The notes beneath the pieces are model-generated. The model had not been told where the DNA came from. It saw nothing but the letters and a program-made list of their open reading frames with translations, and made no database searches. Positions 170 to 6,185 of a stretch of DNA of 14,495 nucleotides are shown piece by piece (the first letter of the stretch is position 1; every line of letters starts with the position of its first letter). A program made the position numbers and the translations under genes. This stretch comes from a virus (taxonomy: Duplodnaviria; Heunggongvirae; Uroviricota; Caudoviricetes): the IMG/VR virus record IMGVR_UViG_3300028992_000014, one strand, 5' to 3'.

Positions 170-306
170 AATCTTAACTACAATATGATTCATTTTGATG
201 ATTGTTTCATAAGGAACAGTGAAGTAAGATCTAAGAGGAGTTAAATTTTATACAGTATAATCATAATATTGCAGCAAGGTGGTTATAATTGAAAGAATAT
301 TTAGAT

Positions 307-1764
307 ATGAATACATCTCATGTAAGAGTTGTTACTCATATGTGTGGGTTCTTGGTTTGGCTCTATAGTCTTTCAATGTTGCCACCAATGGTTGTAGCAT
401 TGTTTTATAAAGAAAAAAGCCTGTTCGTTTTCTTTATAACTTTCGTTATATTTTTTTGCATTGGTGGCGGAGCGTGGTATACAACTAAGAAATCTGGCAT
501 TCAATTACGTACCCGTGATGGGTTTATTATAATTGTAATGTTTTGGATTTTGTTTTCTGTTATTAGTGCATTCCCTTTATGGATTGACTCAGAACTTAAT
601 TTAACGTTCATTGATGCTCTGTTTGAAGGGGTTTCTGGAATAACAACAACAGGAGCAACTGTAATTGATGATGTTAGTTCATTACCTCGGGCATATTTGT
701 ACTATCGGTCACAGTTAAATTTTATAGGTGGTTTAGGAGTTATTGTTCTGGCGGTTGCTGTATTGCCATTATTGGGTATTGGTGGTGCAAAGCTTTATCA
801 GTCAGAAATGCCGGGGCCATTTAAGGATGACAAACTCACTCCCCGCCTGGCCGATACGTCACGGACACTGTGGATAACTTATTCTTTATTAGGTATTGCT
901 TGTATTGTCTGTTATAGACTTGCAGGAATGCCTTTGTTTGATGCTATTTGTCACGGGATTTCCACAGTTTCGCTTGGTGGTTTCTCAACTCATAGCGAGA
1001 GTATCGGATATTTTAATAACTATTTGGTTGAGCTGGTGGCTGGTTCTTTTTCCCTGCTATCGGCTTTCAACTTCACTCTTTGGTATATTGTTATTAGCAG
1101 GAAAACGATAAAACCTTTAATCAGAGATATTGAACTTCGTTTCTTTCTGTTAATAGCCTTAGGGGTGATCATTGTTACCTCTTTCCAGGTCTGGCATATA
1201 GGTATGTATGACTTGCATGGAAGTTTTATTCATTCGTTTTTTCTTGCCAGCTCCATGCTCACTGATAATGGTTTAGCTACGCAGGATTATGCAAGTTGGC
1301 CCACGCACACGATAGTGTTTTTGCTGTTGTCAAGTTTCTTTGGGGGATGTATAGGTTCAACTTGTGGTGGAATTAAGTCACTTCGATTTCTTATACTTTT
1401 CAAACAAAGCAAACACGAGATAAATCAGCTTTCTCATCCCAGAGCGTTGTTGAGTGTAAATGTAGGAGGGAAGATAGTTACAGATCGTGTAATGAGGTCT
1501 GTATGGAGTTTCTTTTTTCTTTATACTCTCTTCACGGTGTTTTTTATACTGGTGTTAAATGGTATGGGATATGATTTTCTTACATCATTTGCAACAGTGG
1601 CTGCATGTATTAATAATATGGGATTAGGTTTTGGGGCTACTGCATCGTCATTCGGAGTGCTTAATGACATTGCAAAATGTTTAATGTGCATAGCTATGAT
1701 TCTTGGTCGCCTTGAAATTTATCCTGTTATTATATTGTTTTCAGGTTTTTTTTGGCGCTCCTAA
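307..1764 (+). CDS. trkG: Trk-system K+ uptake membrane protein TrkG (TrkH/TrkG family), carried as a prophage moron
   Basis: 485 aa from ATG 307 (MNTSHVRVVTHMCGF...), matching E. coli TrkG as I recall it; highly hydrophobic multi-helix protein with GxGG-type selectivity-filter-like segments (e.g. LGIGG). In-frame TTG at 289 preceded by AAGGTGG is an alternative start. Markedly AT-rich relative to the rest of the window. Confidence 0.9.
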   Translation: MNTSHVRVVTHMCGFLVWLYSLSMLPPMVVALFYKEKSLFVFFITFVIFFCIGGGAWYTTKKSGIQLRTRDGFIIIVMFWILFSVISAFPLWIDSELNLTFIDALFEGVSGITTTGATVIDDVSSLPRAYLYYRSQLNFIGGLGVIVLAVAVLPLLGIGGAKLYQSEMPGPFKDDKLTPRLADTSRTLWITYSLLGIACIVCYRLAGMPLFDAICHGISTVSLGGFSTHSESIGYFNNYLVELVAGSFSLLSAFNFTLWYIVISRKTIKPLIRDIELRFFLLIALGVIIVTSFQVWHIGMYDLHGSFIHSFFLASSMLTDNGLATQDYASWPTHTIVFLLLSSFFGGCIGSTCGGIKSLRFLILFKQSKHEINQLSHPRALLSVNVGGKIVTDRVMRSVWSFFFLYTLFTVFFILVLNGMGYDFLTSFATVAACINNMGLGFGATASSFGVLNDIAKCLMCIAMILGRLEIYPVIILFSGFFWRS

Positions 1765-1850
1765 TATATGGCTGATTTATAATTGTGAGTTTAATATTAT
1801 GTTGACTCACTCATTGATCCAATACCTAACTTTACCAGCAACACCTCCGT

Positions 1851-1886
1851 CCCCAGTAGCACTGGCTGCTGGGGTGCGTTTTATTC
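1851..1886 (+). terminator. Candidate rho-independent terminator downstream of trkG
   Basis: 10-bp stem ccccagtagc / gctgctgggg (one G.U wobble) with 4-nt loop actg, followed by tgcgTTTTaTT. Confidence 0.5.
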
Positions 1887-1901: not shown

Positions 1902-2693
1902 ATGAGCGAGAAATTAAAGATAGTCTATCGCCCATTACAAGAATTGTCACCGTATGCGCACAACGCCAGGACGCACAGTACTGAGCAGGTGGCACAACTG
2001 GTAGAAAGTATTAAGCAATTCGGCTGGACTAATCCGGTGCTGATTGACGAAAAGGGCGAAATTATTGCGGGTCACGGTCGTGTTATGGCGGCTGAAATGC
2101 TCAAAATGGATTCTGTTCCGGTCATTGTTCTGTCTGGCCTGACGGATGAGCAGAAAAAGGCGTACCGCCTGGCAGATAATCGCCTGCCGATGAATGCTGG
2201 CTGGGATGAAGATCTGTTGCGGATGGAGCTGTCGGACCTAATCAATGCTGATTTTGATGTCTCCCTGACAGGCTTCATCCCGACAGAAATTGATGAACTG
2301 TTGACGGATGTTTTGCCCGGTACAGGAAATGAGGAGGAGCCGTATACGACGAAAATTGATACGCCTGTTTATGAGCCGTCGGGCGGTAAACCGGATATCA
2401 GTGAACTGTACGACGATACGAAAACTCAGGAGCTGATCAGCCGGATACGTTCGGCGTCCCTTGAGCCTGATATTGAGAAATTCCTCCTGTGTGCGGCAGA
2501 ACGTCACACGGTGTTTAATTTCAGCAGAATTGCGGACTATTACGCTCACGCCCCCTCTGAAATTCAGTGTTTTTTCGAGGAGTCGGCGCTGGTGATCATT
2601 GATTATCAGCAGGCTATTGAAAATGGATTTGTCCGGATGACGCAGCGCATGGTGGAGATCATGCATGGTGGTGAGGAGGAGGAATATGCGTGA
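1902..2693 (+). CDS. ParB/Srx-like N-terminal domain protein (ParB-like nuclease domain protein), acidic C-terminus
   Basis: N-terminal IVYRPLQELSPYAHNARTH...NPVLIDEKGEIIAGHGRVMAA has the ParB N-domain pattern, including a GxGR arginine motif equivalent to ParB box II; AAGG lies 4 nt upstream of ATG 1902; C-terminal half is acidic and ends GGEEEEYA. Confidence 0.8.
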   Translation: MSEKLKIVYRPLQELSPYAHNARTHSTEQVAQLVESIKQFGWTNPVLIDEKGEIIAGHGRVMAAEMLKMDSVPVIVLSGLTDEQKKAYRLADNRLPMNAGWDEDLLRMELSDLINADFDVSLTGFIPTEIDELLTDVLPGTGNEEEPYTTKIDTPVYEPSGGKPDISELYDDTKTQELISRIRSASLEPDIEKFLLCAAERHTVFNFSRIADYYAHAPSEIQCFFEESALVIIDYQQAIENGFVRMTQRMVEIMHGGEEEEYA

Positions 2694-3618
2694 TGATTTT
2701 TGCGCCTTTATTCTGACTCACGGGCGACCGGACAAAGTTCTGACTTACCGGACGTTGCGTCGTGCTGGCTATACCGGGAAAATTTTTATCGTTGTTGATG
2801 ATGAAGATAAGACACGGCATCAGTACATGGCTGAATTTGGTGAACAGGTGCTGGTGTTTTCCAAAGCCGATATCGCCAGTCGTTTTGACGAAGCCGATAA
2901 TTTCTGTGACCGCCGCTCAATTTTTTACGCCCGTAATGCCTGTTTCGACCTGGCAAAACTGGTCGGGTGTAAATACTTCATTCAGCTCGATGATGATTAT
3001 CACGAGTTCCAGTTTCGGGTGGATCGCAACTATGACCAGGCCTATTTTCCGATAAGGAAACTGGATGCGATCCTTTCTGAAATGCTGGCGTACTACGAAT
3101 CAATACCTGCTCTTTCCATCGCTATGTCGCAGGGCGGGGATTTTCTTGGTGACAATGGCGGCCATGCTTCGTGGGTGAAACGCAAGGCAATGAACAGCTT
3201 TATCTGTTCGGTTGATCGACCGTTCTCATTCATGGGGCGCATTAACGAGGATGTGAATACGTACACGAATCTCGGTCGCTGTGGTGAATTGTTTATGACG
3301 ATCGGTGCTGTCCAGTTAGGGCAGAAACAGACGCAGAAAAACAGCGGCGGAATGACCGAGCTGTATCTGGATTCCGGAACCTACGTTAAAAGTTTTTACT
3401 CCGTCATGTATGCGCCGTCGTGCGTAAAAATCTCACTGATGGGTGCCAGCCATAAACGCATTCACCATCAGGTCACCTGGAACAACGCTGCAGTAAAAAT
3501 CCTTCACGAAAAATACAGGAAGAAGACACCCTGCATATCAATGGGGGTGACAAATGATTCCGTATTCGAAAGTCGAGTCTCTGGCAGCGTGCCGGATGAC
3601 TGCACAACAAATCGCTGA
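2686..3618 (+). CDS. Uncharacterised protein, translationally coupled to the ParB-like gene; motif-level resemblance to DxD-type (GT-A-like) nucleotide-sugar transferases
   Basis: ATG 2686 is preceded by GAGGAGGAGG and overlaps the upstream stop (ATGCGTGA); in-frame ATG 2665 is an alternative start. N-terminal alternation FILTHGRPDK ... KIFIVVDDEDK ... YFIQLDDDYHE resembles the strand / DD / DxD layout of GT-A folds. Functional call is inference only. Confidence 0.6.
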   Translation: MRDDFCAFILTHGRPDKVLTYRTLRRAGYTGKIFIVVDDEDKTRHQYMAEFGEQVLVFSKADIASRFDEADNFCDRRSIFYARNACFDLAKLVGCKYFIQLDDDYHEFQFRVDRNYDQAYFPIRKLDAILSEMLAYYESIPALSIAMSQGGDFLGDNGGHASWVKRKAMNSFICSVDRPFSFMGRINEDVNTYTNLGRCGELFMTIGAVQLGQKQTQKNSGGMTELYLDSGTYVKSFYSVMYAPSCVKISLMGASHKRIHHQVTWNNAAVKILHEKYRKKTPCISMGVTNDSVFESRVSGSVPDDCTTNR

Positions 3619-3805
3619 CGTTCTGGATGTTGATCTGAACCGACTGAAAGAAAATCGGGAAGCAATGACAGATTTTTATGCGGCCATCCGTAAGGGCAGA
3701 GCGAAAGGTGAAGCCGAGTTACGAGCGGCATTGTTTAAGCTTGCCAGAAAAGGGGATGCCTTTGCTCTGCGCGAACTACTCAGGGTGGATAAAAATCAGG
3801 ACTAA
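3554..3805 (+). CDS. Small helix-turn-helix DNA-binding protein, possibly packaging-associated
   Basis: 83-aa ORF; GGGGTGA 5 nt upstream of ATG 3554; segment MTAQQIADVLDVDLNRLKENRE looks HTH-like; overlaps the 3' end of the upstream gene by 65 nt; sits immediately 5' of TerS. Alternative start ATG 3596. Confidence 0.5.
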   Translation: MIPYSKVESLAACRMTAQQIADVLDVDLNRLKENREAMTDFYAAIRKGRAKGEAELRAALFKLARKGDAFALRELLRVDKNQD

Positions 3806-3808
3806 CTG

Positions 3809-4903
3809 ATGAGCAGACCGGACTGGGGGGCGTTGCAGCAGGAGTATATTGCTGAATACACCCGCTCCGGTATATCTCCGGTGGCATGGTGTGAAGCAAG
3901 GGGACTGAATTACGCAACAGCCCGTCGTTACATCAAAAAAACTCCGAAAAATGCGCAGACAGAAATGTGCAAAACTGCGCAAAAAAGTGCGCAGAAAAAA
4001 TCTGCGCAGACTGCACAAAAGCGGAACGAAAAATCTCAGGAAAAAAAGCCAGTATTCGATGCGGGCCTGAATGAGGGCGACGCGGAGGAATTTTCGTTCT
4101 GTCCCGATGAATTCGGCATTTCTGACCAGCAGGCTAAGTTTGCGATGCTTGTTGCTCAGGGTAAAAAGCCGACAGAGGCGTACCGACTAGCCGGTTATGA
4201 GGGGCAAGGTGCGACAGCTAACAGCAACGCCAGTCGTATGCTTAGAAATGCCAGGGTTTTTCGCGCTATCAGCTACTTCCGCAATCAGTACCAGAAACGC
4301 TATACCGCAGACCTGGATTTACTAGTGAGTCAGTTGATGGCTATTGTCCTGGCCGACCCCAATCAGCTTGCACAATTTCGCCGTGTTAACTGCCGTTATT
4401 GCTGGGGCGAGAATCATCTCTACCAGTGGCGCGATATAGCAGAATTCGACAAGGCAGCGGCGCAGGCTTCCAGAGATGGCAAACCCGAACCGGAATATGG
4501 AGGCCTCGGCTTTGTTGATAACGCCATACCCAATCCGGACTGCCCGAAGTGCTGCGGTGAGGGAACGGGACAGCTTTATATGGCTGATACCACTCTGCTT
4601 GATGGGGATGCGCGGCAATTATATGCAGGGGCAAAATTCGGAAAATTCGGCGTTGAGATCCTGCTGGAGGATAAGGCTGCCGCCCGGCGTGAATTGTTGC
4701 GTTTGTTTTCTGCTGGCGGGGCTTTATGTGCAGATAAGCGGCTACAGGAACTGGAAATTGAACGGCGCAGAATGGAAAACCAGAAGCTGCGCAAAGAGAT
4801 CGAAACGGTGGAAGATAATGAACATCCCCAGCCTGTGGCGATCAATATTAATGTGGTTGATGCCAGAGTAAGGAGTGATGAAGATGATCTCTCCGACGCT
4901 TAA
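3809..4903 (+). CDS. Terminase small subunit (Terminase_2 / P27-family-like core) with N-terminal HTH, low-complexity linker and C-terminal Cys cluster
   Basis: Core ISDQQAKFAMLVAQGKKPTEAYRLAGYEGQGATANSNASRMLRNARV fits the conserved TerS pattern (KQxxF...AGY...A..R.L.N..V) as I recall it; lies directly upstream of TerL; C-terminus has CRYC ... CPKCC. Confidence 0.85.
   Translation: MSRPDWGALQQEYIAEYTRSGISPVAWCEARGLNYATARRYIKKTPKNAQTEMCKTAQKSAQKKSAQTAQKRNEKSQEKKPVFDAGLNEGDAEEFSFCPDEFGISDQQAKFAMLVAQGKKPTEAYRLAGYEGQGATANSNASRMLRNARVFRAISYFRNQYQKRYTADLDLLVSQLMAIVLADPNQLAQFRRVNCRYCWGENHLYQWRDIAEFDKAAAQASRDGKPEPEYGGLGFVDNAIPNPDCPKCCGEGTGQLYMADTTLLDGDARQLYAGAKFGKFGVEILLEDKAAARRELLRLFSAGGALCADKRLQELEIERRRMENQKLRKEIETVEDNEHPQPVAININVVDARVRSDEDDLSDA
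3952..4020 (+). repeat. Cluster of palindromic TGCGCA hexamers (4 exact, 2 variant) at roughly 12-bp spacing inside the TerS gene; candidate pac / terminase recognition site
   Basis: TGCGCA at 3952, 3976, 3988 and 4003; TGTGCA at 3966; TGCACA at 4012. The same DNA encodes the low-complexity peptide KNAQTEMCKTAQKSAQKKSAQTAQK. Confidence 0.5.
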
Positions 4904-6185
4904 TGTGCCTCAGGCGCGATTTCTTTCAATGCCCCATAAATTTAAAGCCTATATTGCTGGTTTTGGCTCGGGCAAAACATGGGTTGGGTGTGGCGGCATA
5001 TGCAAGGGGATTTGGGAGCATCCAGGTATAAATCAGGGATATTTTGCGCCAACGTATCCCCAAATTCGCGATATTTTTTACCCTACAGTGGAAGAAGTTG
5101 CTGCTGACTGGGGATTGAACGTAAAAATTAATGAGGGAAATAAAGAGGTTCACTTTTATTACGGACGCCAGTATCGGGGAACCACTATCTGCAGATCGAT
5201 GGAGAAGCCACAAACGATCGTCGGTTTCAAAATTGGTAATGCGTTGGTGGATGAACTGGACATTTTGCCGAAGGAAAAAGCCAGAACGGCGTGGCGCAAG
5301 ATAATTGCACGTATGCGTTATAAGATTGATGGACTTCGCAACGGTATTGACGTTACAACCACGCCGGAAGGATTCAAATTTGTCTACGAGCAGTTTGTTA
5401 AAGCCGTGCGTGAAAAAACAGAGCTGGCCTCACTGTATGGTCTGGTGCAGGCATCTACTTTCGATAATGAAAAGAACCTGCCAGCAGATTACATTCCTTC
5501 GCTTCTTGAATCATACCCTCCAGAGCTGATTAAAGCCTATCTTCGAGGACAGTTTACTAACCTGACAAGTGGTACTGTTTACCATCAGTTTGACCGGAAA
5601 CTGAATAATTGCGAAGAAGTGGAGCAGCCAGGGGAGCCGATTTATATTGGGATGGATTTTAACGTTGGAAAGATGGCGGGAATCGTCCATGTGCTGCGTT
5701 TGGGGCTTCCATGTGCGGTAACTGAAATCATCAATGCCTACGATACGCCGGATATGATCCGCATCATTAAAGAACGCTTCTGGCTGTATGATGGGAATGA
5801 TTACCGGAAAGTGAGGGAAATTTATATTTATCCAGATGCTTCCGGGGATTCCAGAAAATCAAGTAACGCAAGTACGACGGATATAGCCCAGCTTAAGCAG
5901 GCTGGTTTTAACGTTGTGGTGAACAGCTCGAACCCGCCAGTAAAAGATCGCGTTAACTCAATGAATGCAATGTTCTGCAATGCCAATGGTGAGCGTCGCT
6001 ATAAAGTTAATGTGAAGCGTTGCCCGTTATATGCCGAATCTCTGGAGCAACAGGTCTGGGATGAGAAGGGGGAGCCTGATAAAAAATCTGGCAATGATCA
6101 CCCGAATGATGCCGGAGGTTATTTCATCGTTAAGCAATTCCCTATTGTCAAACCGACCGGAAGAGTCACATCACTTCGGATTTAA
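4884..6185 (+). CDS. Terminase large subunit (ATPase/nuclease)
   Basis: Walker A-like AGFGSGKT near the N-terminus; ~430 aa; acidic nuclease-like C-terminal half; AGGAG 8 nt upstream of ATG 4884 (in-frame GTG 4875 and ATG 4878 also possible); directly follows TerS. Confidence 0.9.
   Translation: MISPTLNVPQARFLSMPHKFKAYIAGFGSGKTWVGCGGICKGIWEHPGINQGYFAPTYPQIRDIFYPTVEEVAADWGLNVKINEGNKEVHFYYGRQYRGTTICRSMEKPQTIVGFKIGNALVDELDILPKEKARTAWRKIIARMRYKIDGLRNGIDVTTTPEGFKFVYEQFVKAVREKTELASLYGLVQASTFDNEKNLPADYIPSLLESYPPELIKAYLRGQFTNLTSGTVYHQFDRKLNNCEEVEQPGEPIYIGMDFNVGKMAGIVHVLRLGLPCAVTEIINAYDTPDMIRIIKERFWLYDGNDYRKVREIYIYPDASGDSRKSSNASTTDIAQLKQAGFNVVVNSSNPPVKDRVNSMNAMFCNANGERRYKVNVKRCPLYAESLEQQVWDEKGEPDKKSGNDHPNDAGGYFIVKQFPIVKPTGRVTSLRI

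What the first reader, a model, noticed from the sequence alone, without database searches (positions are those of the whole stretch)
1902..3618. Translationally coupled ParB/Srx-like protein plus uncharacterised DxD-motif protein between the trkG moron and the packaging genes
The ParB-like gene (1902-2693) and the ~310-aa gene (2686-3618) share an ATGCGTGA start/stop overlap, and the second start is preceded by GAGGAGGAGG, so they are very likely made together and act together. ParB/Srx-fold proteins are NTP-binding DNA clamps or nucleases that recur in DNA-modification and defence systems (DndB, DpdB). The partner carries hydrophobic strands ending in acidic clusters (KIFIVVDDEDK, YFIQLDDDYHE) spaced like the DD and DxD motifs of GT-A nucleotide-sugar transferases. 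Possible roles are DNA or virion modification, anti-restriction, superinfection exclusion, or an accessory packaging nuclease. The ParB-like protein also ends in an acidic GGEEEEYA tail. I do not recognise a characterised function for this pairing.
Basis: partly seen in the sequence, partly recalled or inferred. Interest (0 to 1): 0.7.

Follow-up and report, generated by a model that had tools for sequence, protein, structure and literature searches.

The report
Phage sugar-transferase with ParB-like partner
A common E. coli prophage makes, just before DNA packaging, a sugar-adding enzyme of the phage DNA-glycosylation family together with a dedicated ParB-like helper protein. The pairing is conserved in viruses of bacteria and archaea, but its target is unknown because these phages have no known way to make the modified bases such enzymes normally use.

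Summary
ORF 1902-2693 is a ParB/Srx N-domain protein, the full-length form of Rac ynaK. ORF 2686-3618 belongs to Pfam TAGT (TET-associated glycosyltransferase, GT-A fold, invariant DDD). They overlap by ATGCGTGA behind a GAGGAGGAGG Shine-Dalgarno.

New here: TAGT's constant partner is not the ParB domain but the C-terminal ~120 aa of the ParB-like protein. This domain has no Pfam family and no PDB fold match. It lay next to TAGT in 79/79 TAGT-anchored and 78/78 domain-anchored loci. Stop and start overlapped in 49/51 loci.

In small phages the domain carries a ParB N-domain and sits before the terminase. In large phages it stands alone, carries a Q-x-x-L-F peptide resembling a beta-clamp-binding motif, and sits among replisome genes.

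No hydroxymethyl-pyrimidine source (TS-like, TET/JBP, C5-MTase) was found.

Best reading (about 0.5): a two-subunit, DNA-tethered glycosyltransferase that modifies phage DNA before packaging. It parallels the ParB-dependent phage thymine dioxygenases described in 2026. The acceptor is unknown, and protein glycosylation is the main rival.

Verdict: new variant of a known kind, untested experimentally, moderately high interest.

The parts
1851..1874 (+). Intrinsic terminator after the trkG moron. The pair has no promoter-like site of its own, so it is read by late (Q-antiterminated) transcription.
   Evidence: 10-bp stem with 7 G-C pairs plus a T-run, and no + strand promoter-like site between 1618 and 2873; antiterminator Q and the lysis genes lie upstream in the phage record.
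1902..2693 (+). ParB-like partner protein (263 aa), the full-length ynaK of Rac-type prophages. It is strongly acidic (pI 4.5, net charge about -25).
1902..2321 (+). ParB/Srx N-terminal NTP-binding-type domain plus an acidic helical segment (aa 1-140). GHGR (aa 57-60) aligns to GERR of Spo0J, and D92-N93 aligns to E-N. The nearest phage relatives are the N-termini of adenine DNA methyltransferases. There is no HTH domain.
   Evidence: PF02195, aa 23-90. (alignment to Spo0J 1vz0, 4umk, 6sdk). (tblastn hits under DNA methylase genes, 40-55% identity). (PADLOC MTase_II, E 1.5e-38). (phrog_498).
2322..2690 (+). TAGT-partner domain (aa 141-263), a helical bundle with no Pfam family and no PDB fold match. 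It was found with TAGT in every locus sampled.
2343..2396 (+). Conserved extended peptide YTTKIDTPVYEPSGGKPD (aa 148-165; family motif KY[ST]xKIxxPxYEPxxxKP; invariant Y157). It is either a docking peptide for TAGT or a candidate acceptor.
   Evidence: invariant Y, P columns. (no secondary structure and low-to-moderate confidence in the single-chain model).
2673..2693 (+). Translational-coupling junction: Shine-Dalgarno GAGGAGGAGG (2673-2682) and the ATGCGTGA start/stop overlap (2686-2693).
   Evidence: Overlap is conserved in 49/51 non-redundant loci.
2686..3618 (+). TAGT-family GT-A glycosyltransferase (310 aa). Motifs: R14, DDD 102-104 (nt 2989-2997), N187-E-D189 (nt 3244-3252), and the conserved C-terminal motifs QxxTQxxxGGMT and RIHH. 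The last ~25 aa are a lineage-specific extension.
   Evidence: PF20691, E 3.4e-35. (phrog_842). (invariant columns). (GT-A fold; matches to glycogenin, SpsA, ColGalT1, ThuS). (phage TAGT models, E down to 1e-20).
3596..6185 (+). Packaging genes immediately downstream (context): a small TerS-like ORF, TerS 3809-4903 and TerL 4875-6185.
   Evidence: TerL or portal lies downstream in at least 46 of 65 non-redundant loci.

Best explanation
The two genes encode the two subunits of a DNA-directed glycosyltransferase made late in the lytic cycle.

Shown:
- The catalytic subunit is a TAGT-family GT-A enzyme with an intact R...DDD...ED site.
- Its gene start is overlapped by the stop of a partner gene, and this arrangement is conserved from E. 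coli to haloarchaeal viruses.
- The partner's C-terminal ~120-aa domain accompanied TAGT in every locus sampled.
- The partner's N-terminus is modular. In small phages that depend on the host replisome it is a ParB/Srx domain of the type fused to phage DNA methylases, and the pair sits just before the terminase. In large phages with their own PolA, clamp and clamp loader it is a Q-x-x-L-F peptide resembling a beta-clamp-binding motif, and the pair sits inside the replication module.

Inferred:
- The C-terminal domain and its extended KY[ST]xKIxxPxYEP peptide bind TAGT.
- The N-terminal module holds the enzyme on duplex DNA. ParB would do this by NTP-gated dimerisation or clamping, as proposed for the ParB activator of phage 5mYOX176. 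The peptide would do it by riding the sliding clamp, as T4 alpha-GT does on gp45.
- TAGT transfers a sugar from a nucleotide-sugar to replicated phage DNA before the terminase packages it. The modification would protect the DNA from restriction or other nucleases in the next host.

The acceptor atom is not known. These phages lack any detectable route to 5hmC or 5hmU.
For: Family and fold.

Coupling: (49/51 overlaps).

Obligate partnership: the C-domain is adjacent to TAGT in 73 of 79 non-redundant TAGT-anchored loci and within 4 kb in the other 6. TAGT is present in 78/78 C-domain-anchored loci. Among phage records the C-domain was detected only in records that also carry this TAGT clade.

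Modular N-terminus:
- 60/73 partners are ParB-fused and 11 stand alone.
- 100/105 distinct stand-alone N-peptides contain [LMIF]F, against 28.7 in shuffles. Qxx[LMIF]F occurs in 43, against 1.2 in shuffles.
- A beta-clamp gene is in the fetched locus in 8/19 stand-alone cases and 0/64 ParB-fused cases.
- Stand-alone loci carry PolA, DnaB, primase and clamp-loader genes.

DNA link of the ParB_N domain: its nearest relatives are the N-termini of DNA adenine methylases.

Timing: the pair follows a terminator, has no promoter of its own, and precedes TerS and TerL. The synteny ParB-like, TAGT, terminase holds in Lactobacillus, Nocardia and Porphyromonas phages and in metagenomic loci; in the haloarchaeal virus the pair lies about 3.7 kb upstream of TerL with several small ORFs between.

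Precedents:
- A ParB-like protein without a DNA-binding domain is required by a phage thymine dioxygenase acting on dsDNA (PMC13229309).
- T4 alpha-GT binds the gp45 clamp (PMC13216743).
- TAGT-family GT-A enzymes glycosylate 5hmC in DNA (bioRxiv 10.1101/2023.12.21.572611).
- ParB was earlier proposed to direct DNA-modification enzymes during packaging (cited in PMC8256090).

Selection: dN/dS is at most about 0.12.
Against: - No hydroxymethyl-pyrimidine source was detected. None was found in the Rac-like phage, in the complete 31.8-kb phage c5, or within 8-10 kb in ten Pfam-annotated loci. The only acceptors known for this enzyme family are therefore missing.
- No DNA glycosylation has been reported for lambdoid or Rac-like phages.
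- A TAGT-family domain (GREB1) glycosylates a protein (PMC7968844).
- The partner is strongly acidic and has no recognisable DNA-binding domain.
- The GxxR arginine is not conserved in all partners.
- No complex, fusion protein or co-fold supports a physical interaction.
- The clamp-binding reading of the QxxLF peptide rests on its resemblance to the consensus. It was not tested.
Confidence: 0.5

Rival explanations
1. Protein glycosylation. TAGT glycosylates a protein rather than DNA. The most likely target is its own partner, on the invariant Tyr157 or the near-invariant Ser/Thr149 of the extended peptide, in the manner of glycogenin. Another replication or packaging protein reached through the ParB or clamp tether is also possible.
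For: - No hydroxymethyl-pyrimidine acceptor source was found.
- The partner carries an invariant, probably unstructured Tyr/Pro-rich peptide just before the helical domain.
- The best PDB fold matches include the protein- and peptide-modifying GT-A enzymes glycogenin, LH3/ColGalT1 and ThuS/SunS.
- GREB1, a TAGT-family domain, O-GlcNAcylates ER-alpha (PMC7968844).
- Tandem TAGT paralogues could build a glycan on a protein.
Against: - Every context and every N-terminal module points to DNA: the methylase-type ParB domain, the clamp-motif-like peptide, and the replisome or terminase neighbourhood.
- The fold matches are weak (E about 1e-4, TM 0.3-0.4) and generic for GT-A.
- Position 149 is Ala in one homologue.
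- A mere substrate would not need 1:1 translational coupling.
Confidence: 0.2
2. Conventional TAGT role. The enzyme glycosylates 5hmC, 5hmU or an already glucosylated base, and the precursor is made by an undetected, highly divergent enzyme or comes from elsewhere. In Rac-type prophages the pair may be a drifting remnant.
For: - All characterised family members use such acceptors (PMC13216743; bioRxiv 10.1101/2023.12.21.572611).
- PMC13229309 reports thousands of 5mYOX-like sequences that Pfam TET_JBP misses.
- Many small ORFs in these phages remain unannotated.
Against: - The complete 50-gene phage c5 has no unassigned ORF of 5mYOX or TS size with any oxygenase or TS signal.
- The Rac-like phage and HHTV-2 replicate with host enzymes (PMC7911831).
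- Strong purifying selection and invariant catalytic residues argue against a remnant.
- The intact pair is present in 889 of 5,426 complete E. coli genomes.
Confidence: 0.1
3. Unlinked functions. The ParB-like protein is a packaging accessory or nuclease (pac or cos recognition), and the glycosyltransferase modifies the cell envelope or virion, or a small molecule such as a nucleotide or an immune signal.
For: - The position next to the terminase. Related stand-alone ParB-like genes are the first gene of several phage genomes.
- Databases annotate such proteins as 'ParB-like nuclease'.
- Some related phages carry separate GT2 clusters near capsid genes.
Against: - Two-way co-occurrence in every sampled locus and conserved stop/start overlap argue for one joint function.
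- The TAGT-linked element is the C-domain, not the ParB domain.
- Stand-alone versions lie in replication modules, not packaging modules.
- No parS- or pac-like repeats flank the pair.
- In this prophage the pair is late-expressed behind a terminator, which does not suit lysogenic conversion.
Confidence: 0.08

Closest known systems
T2/T6 beta-glucosyl-HMC-alpha-glucosyltransferase and the 5mYOX-associated phage GT-A DNA glycosyltransferases (Pfam TAGT, PF20691; PHROG 842)
   Same: Same Pfam and PHROG family, GT-A fold and conserved R...DDD...ED motifs. Phage-encoded. Expected to use a nucleotide-sugar donor.
   Different: - Those enzymes act on 5hmC or glucosyl-5hmC made by dCMP hydroxymethylase or by C5-MTase plus TET. 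No such source is present here.
- They are not reported to need a partner. This clade was found with the C-domain protein in every locus sampled.
- No T-even phage appears in tblastn at E <= 1e-5, so the relationship is distant.
ParB-dependent phage thymine dioxygenases (5mYOX176 with ParB176; PNAS 2026, PMC13229309)
   Same: A phage ParB-like protein with an N-terminal NTP-binding domain, a linker and a C-terminal domain but no DNA-binding domain. It is encoded next to a DNA-modifying enzyme, is needed for that enzyme's action on dsDNA, and is specific to its cognate enzyme. Terminases are often nearby.
   Different: - The client enzyme here is a glycosyltransferase, not a dioxygenase.
- I could not test whether the C-terminal domains are homologous, because the sequences are not held. 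The C-domain model matches no solved structure, including canonical ParB C-terminal dimerisation domains.
- Dependence of TAGT on the partner is inferred, not shown.
ParB_N-DNA methyltransferase fusions of phages and plasmids
   Same: The ParB_N domain here is 40-55% identical to the N-termini of many phage adenine methylases. Such methylase genes are often found just upstream of the terminase (my own knowledge, not checked here), the position the pair occupies in this window.
   Different: Here the catalytic domain is a separate polypeptide of a different enzyme class, joined through an adaptor domain rather than fused.
T4 alpha-glucosyltransferase bound to the gp45 sliding clamp
   Same: A DNA glycosyltransferase tethered to a sliding clamp (PMC13216743). 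This is analogous to the clamp-motif-like variants of the partner, which are encoded beside beta-clamp genes.
   Different: T4 alpha-GT has a GT-B fold and binds the clamp directly. The window's version uses a ParB domain, not a clamp motif.
Chromosome or plasmid partition ParB (Spo0J, KorB, Noc)
   Same: The ParB_N fold, with box II and box III-like motifs.
   Different: There is no HTH domain, no parS, no ParA and a different C-terminal domain. The database label 'chromosome partitioning protein' is misleading.

Membership tests
TAGT (TET-associated glycosyltransferase, PF20691) | Match to the family profile above the curated threshold | tested here: met
   122.3 bits against a cut-off of 27.5, covering aa 8-222. 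PHROG 842 full length, E 6e-104.
TAGT (TET-associated glycosyltransferase, PF20691) | GT-A fold with a DxD metal and nucleotide-sugar site, and the R...DDD...ED triad of phage DNA GT-A enzymes | tested here: met
   R14, D102-D104 and N187/D189 are invariant. AF2 models the N-terminal half with confidence. Foldseek hits GT-A enzymes in the PDB and TAGT models in BFVD.
TAGT (TET-associated glycosyltransferase, PF20691) | Genomic association with a source of hydroxymethyl-pyrimidine (TET/JBP plus C5-MTase, or a TS-like hydroxymethylase) or with alpha/beta-GT | tested here: not met
   None in the window, in the Rac-like phage record, in the complete phage c5, or in ten annotated metagenomic loci.
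TAGT (TET-associated glycosyltransferase, PF20691) | Glycosyl transfer to 5hmC, 5hmU or glucosyl-5hmC in DNA | not testable with these tools
   Needs biochemistry or nucleoside mass spectrometry.
Partition-type ParB (ParABS) | ParB N-terminal (CTP-binding) domain | tested here: met
   PF02195, 29.3 bits against a cut-off of 26.3. GHGR aligns to GERR and DN to EN of Spo0J. The GxxR arginine is absent in 2 of 9 family members.
Partition-type ParB (ParABS) | HTH DNA-binding domain, parS sites and a ParA partner | tested here: not met
   No HTH or ParB-C Pfam hit. No flanking parS-like repeats. No ParA among the window ORFs. TIGR00180 scores 38 against a cut-off of 58.
ParB-like activators of phage DNA-modifying enzymes (5mYOX-associated ParB, PMC13229309) | NTP-binding domain, linker and C-terminal domain, no DNA-binding domain, encoded beside the client enzyme | tested here: met
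   Architecture. Adjacency and overlap. The client enzyme differs (TAGT rather than 5mYOX).
ParB-like activators of phage DNA-modifying enzymes (5mYOX-associated ParB, PMC13229309) | The client enzyme needs the ParB-like protein for activity on dsDNA; the C-terminal domain is homologous to that of ParB176 | not testable with these tools
   No assay was possible, and the ParB176 sequence is not held. The C-domain has no PDB fold match.
Beta-clamp-binding proteins (QL[SD]LF-type motif) | Clamp-binding pentapeptide at a terminus | tested here: not met
   The window protein starts MSEKLKIVY and carries a ParB domain instead. A motif resembling the clamp-binding consensus is present only in stand-alone relatives.

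The most novel reading that the evidence does not exclude
TAGT, delivered to duplex DNA by its ParB-type or clamp-motif-bearing partner, glycosylates DNA that contains only canonical bases. The target could be an exocyclic amine or another site not previously known to be glycosylated. That would be a new chemical class of DNA modification, present in roughly one in six complete E. coli genomes and in viruses of many bacterial phyla and of haloarchaea. The constant C-terminal domain would be a new kind of adaptor that plugs a DNA-modifying enzyme onto alternative DNA-sliding platforms.
Probability: 0.27. Interest if true: 0.9.

Novelty: new variant of a known kind. Interest (0 to 1): 0.62.

Why it matters
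Phage DNA glycosylation is a classic counter-defence, but it is known only on bases that were first hydroxymethylated.

This TAGT clade is widespread. The intact pair is in 889 of 5,426 complete E. coli genomes. It also occurs in prophages and phages of Firmicutes, Bacteroidota, Actinobacteria and Proteobacteria and in a haloarchaeal virus. Yet it has no precursor pathway and was found with a dedicated partner in every locus sampled.

If the target is DNA, this is a new route, and possibly a new chemistry, of genome protection in ordinary temperate phages. It would affect restriction, sequencing and phage therapy work.

If the target is a protein, it would be a new self-priming glycoprotein system acting on DNA machinery.

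Either way the partner's modularity (ParB domain or clamp-motif-like peptide) extends the 2026 finding that ParB-like proteins activate DNA-modifying enzymes.

The system can be tested directly in E. coli. K-12 lacks it, because its Rac prophage keeps only the first 254 nt of ynaK.

Tried and rejected
- Partition function. Rejected: no HTH, parS or ParA.
- Defence-system membership. PADLOC hits only MTase_II, through the shared ParB_N domain, and nothing for TAGT.
- NCBIfam. No model matches TAGT.
- Natural partner-TAGT fusions. None in 166 loci or in the best 150 of 1,397 C-domain clusters.
- A third N-terminal module. Proteins of intermediate length turned out to be truncated ParB_N.
- Hidden hydroxymethylase or dioxygenase in the Rac-like phage and in c5. 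None found.
- Literature. Iyer et al. 2013 (NAR 41:7635), which defined TAGT and may mention the ParB linkage, is not held. No functional paper on ynaK was found. Nothing was found on HHTV-2 or Lactobacillus phage DNA modification. Supplements with the ParB176 sequence are not held.
- Co-folding of the two proteins.
Full report
**Observation**

The window is the late region of a Rac-type lambdoid prophage. It runs trkG (289-1764, TrkH family), an intrinsic terminator (1851-1874), the gene pair, a small TerS-like ORF, TerS, TerL, portal and a MuF-like gene.

ORF 1902-2693 (263 aa) and ORF 2686-3618 (310 aa) overlap by ATGCGTGA. GAGGAGGAGG lies at 2673-2682.

Ten phage records and many E. coli genomes carry the same DNA at 99% identity or more. 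The first gene is the full-length form of ynaK. K-12 Rac retains only its first 254 nt. The intact pair is in 889 of 5,426 complete E. coli genomes. Databases label the first gene 'chromosome partitioning protein' or 'ParB/Srx N-terminal domain-containing protein'. They label the second 'hypothetical' or 'GREB1-related'.

**What the proteins are**

Protein 1:
- It has a ParB_N domain (PF02195, just above threshold) and matches PHROG 620 over its full length.
- Its N-domain aligns to Spo0J, with GHGR on GERR and D92-N93 on E-N.
- It has no HTH domain, and the locus has no ParA and no parS-like repeats.
- The closest phage relatives of the N-domain (40-55% identity) are the N-termini of adenine DNA methyltransferases.

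Protein 2:
- It is a clear member of Pfam TAGT (E 3.4e-35) and PHROG 842 'beta-glucosyl-HMC-alpha-glucosyltransferase' (E 6e-104).
- R14, D102-D104 and N187/D189 are invariant across homologues. These correspond to the R...DDD...ED triad described for phage GT-A DNA glycosyltransferases (bioRxiv 10.1101/2023.12.21.572611).
- The AF2 model is confident for the N-terminal Rossmann-like half. It matches GT-A enzymes in the PDB and TAGT models among viral proteins.

**The pairing is ancient and obligatory, but the constant partner is not the ParB domain**

tblastn first showed the same overlapping pair in several unrelated viruses:
- Lactobacillus phages phi jlb1 and c5
- Nocardia phage NTR1
- Porphyromonas phages
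- the haloarchaeal virus HHTV-2

In the bacterial phages the pair lies directly before the terminase genes. In HHTV-2 it lies about 3.7 kb upstream of TerL, with several small ORFs between.

I then fetched 160 TAGT-anchored loci from IMG/VR and from GTDB genomes. I reduced them to 84 loci with less than 75% TAGT identity and scanned them with HMMs for the ParB N-part and the C-terminal part (aa 141-263). The results:

| Measure | Count |
|---|---|
| Loci with enough upstream DNA | 79 |
| C-terminal domain directly upstream, same strand | 73 |
| C-terminal domain within 4 kb | 6 |
| C-terminal domain absent | 0 |
| ParB N-domain on the same ORF | 60 of 73 evaluable |
| Partner is a stand-alone 125-145 aa C-domain protein | 11 |

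The reverse test used 78 loci anchored on the C-domain. TAGT was found in all of them.

Further properties of the C-domain:
- Among phage records the C-domain was detected only in records that also carry this TAGT clade, and no T-even phage has it.
- The partner's stop overlaps the TAGT start in 49 of 51 loci where both ends can be placed.
- It has no Pfam family.
- It forms 1,397 clusters at 50% identity and is always C-terminal.
- It folds as a helical bundle preceded by an extended, invariant Tyr/Pro-rich peptide, KY[ST]xKIxxPxYEP.

**Two alternative N-terminal modules and two genomic homes**

ParB-fused partners sit upstream of the packaging genes. TerL or portal lies downstream in at least 46 of 65 loci.

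Stand-alone partners sit inside replication modules of large phages, next to PolA, DnaB, primase, clamp loader and, often directly, a DnaN-type beta-clamp. A clamp gene was in the fetched locus in 8 of 19 stand-alone loci and 0 of 64 ParB-fused loci.

The short N-terminal peptides of stand-alone partners carry a conserved K-Q-x-x-L-F-[GDE] motif:

| Pattern | Observed (of 105 distinct peptides) | Mean in shuffles |
|---|---|---|
| [LMIF]F | 100 | 28.7 |
| Qxx[LMIF]F | 43 | 1.2 |

The motif resembles the bacterial beta-clamp-binding consensus QL[SD]LF. That consensus comes from my own knowledge, and binding was not tested.

I read the ParB domain and the clamp-motif-like peptide as interchangeable ways of keeping the same adaptor, and hence TAGT, on DNA.

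**Missing acceptor**

All characterised relatives glycosylate a hydroxyl on 5hmC, 5hmU or glucosyl-5hmC (PMC13216743; PMC13390438; bioRxiv 10.1101/2023.12.21.572611). I found no TS-like hydroxymethylase, TET/JBP dioxygenase or C5-methylase in any of these:
- the Rac-like phage record
- the complete 31.8-kb phage c5
- ten Pfam-annotated metagenomic loci, within 8-10 kb of the pair

These small phages replicate with host enzymes. Both genes are nevertheless under strong purifying selection. The literature notes 'solitary' TAGTs as unexplained (PMC13216743). It lists ParB-like genes among GT neighbours without analysing them (bioRxiv 10.1101/2023.12.21.572611).

**Mechanism proposed**

The closest experimental precedent is the 2026 report that a subclass of phage thymine dioxygenases needs a cognate ParB-like protein to act on dsDNA (PMC13229309). 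That protein has an NTP-binding domain, a linker and a C-terminal domain but no DNA-binding domain. Models place the enzyme between its two domains.

Other precedents point the same way. An earlier proposal held that ParB directs DNA-modification enzymes during packaging (cited in PMC8256090). T4 alpha-GT binds the gp45 clamp (PMC13216743).

On this basis I propose a two-subunit, DNA-tethered glycosyltransferase that modifies concatemeric phage DNA just before packaging. In large phages the modification would happen at the replisome. The likely purpose is protection against host nucleases.

- Shown: family membership, the conserved coupling, the co-occurrence, the modular architecture and the genomic contexts.
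- Inferred: the physical complex, DNA as substrate and the biological role.
- Confidence: about 0.5.

**Rivals**

- Protein glycosylation (0.2). The partner's invariant Tyr157 or Thr149 peptide could be a glycogenin-like acceptor. A TAGT-family domain, GREB1, glycosylates a protein (PMC7968844). The best PDB fold matches include protein-modifying GT-As, but those matches are weak and generic.
- Conventional hydroxymethyl-pyrimidine acceptor from an undetected source, or a decaying remnant (0.1).
- Unlinked packaging or nuclease and envelope or small-molecule functions (0.08). The two-way co-occurrence in every sampled locus and the replication-module variants argue against this.

**Variants seen elsewhere**

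Some loci carry two tandem TAGT paralogues. One has a TAGT fused to a SAM methyltransferase. Several have a histidine-phosphatase plus cytidylyltransferase-like gene inserted between partner and TAGT. These suggest glycan elaboration and dedicated donor synthesis. That fits a hypermodification pathway but does not identify the acceptor.

**Verdict**

The module is a new variant of a known kind: phage TAGT glycosyltransferases, and ParB-like activators of DNA-modifying enzymes. It has not been characterised experimentally.

The most novel reading not excluded is glycosylation of DNA made only of canonical bases. I give it about 0.27.

Limits of this analysis:
- No co-fold could be run.
- Iyer et al. 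2013 could not be read.
- The clamp-binding role of the motif is inferred from its resemblance to the consensus and from gene neighbourhood only.
- The locus samples are biased toward sequences retrievable with patterns derived from this family.

Noticed in passing
window 3947-4011: Three direct copies of AAAA(A/G)TGCGCAGA(C/A) lie inside the TerS gene, overlapping terminator-like inverted repeats on the minus strand. They may be a pac or TerS-binding site.
   Followed up: no
window 3596-3805 and 3809-4903: A small ORF matches only a segment (145-218 of 319) of a PHROG TerS family. It precedes an unusually long TerS (364 aa) whose Terminase_2 domain covers only aa 122-321. This could be a split or composite small terminase.
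   Followed up: no
window 3535-3618: The E. coli-lineage TAGT has a C-terminal extension of about 25 aa (310 aa against 283-290 aa in other lineages). The extension overlaps the next ORF.
   Followed up: partly
window 289-1874: The trkG potassium-transporter moron has its own strong intrinsic terminator (1851-1874), inserted between the lysis genes and the late packaging region.
   Followed up: partly
L228 4326-5321 (and L226, L229, L235, L241, L249): A gene encoding a histidine phosphatase plus a cytidylyltransferase-like nucleotidyltransferase is inserted between the partner gene and TAGT in L228. Five further loci have a gap of similar size at the same place, which I did not scan. The L228 gene may make a special nucleotide-activated donor.
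   Followed up: partly
L144 3581-5275; L142 5160-6011; L169, L174, L175: L144 has a TAGT fused to a class-I SAM methyltransferase. Several loci have two TAGT paralogues in tandem or flanking the partner gene. This suggests stepwise glycan building.
   Followed up: partly
L176 9429-12002: A PLP-dependent enzyme (PALP) lies between two N6_N4 methyltransferase genes immediately after TAGT in a phage replication module. This may be a further DNA-modification pathway.
   Followed up: no
L255 17837-20316: Four consecutive GT2-family glycosyltransferase genes lie just after the capsid gene of a phage that also has the ParB-like/TAGT pair. This resembles a virion-glycosylation cluster.
   Followed up: no
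P0369, P0366 (stand-alone partner homologues): These stand-alone C-domain proteins have an MKQLF-type N-terminus and also a lysine-rich basic C-terminal tail, which may be an additional DNA-binding element.
   Followed up: no
E. coli K-12 Rac prophage (H69, NZ_AKBV01000001.1 1195548-1195801): K-12 ynaK corresponds only to nt 1-254 of the gene in this window and is joined to ydaY. Laboratory K-12 strains therefore lack the module.
   Followed up: partly
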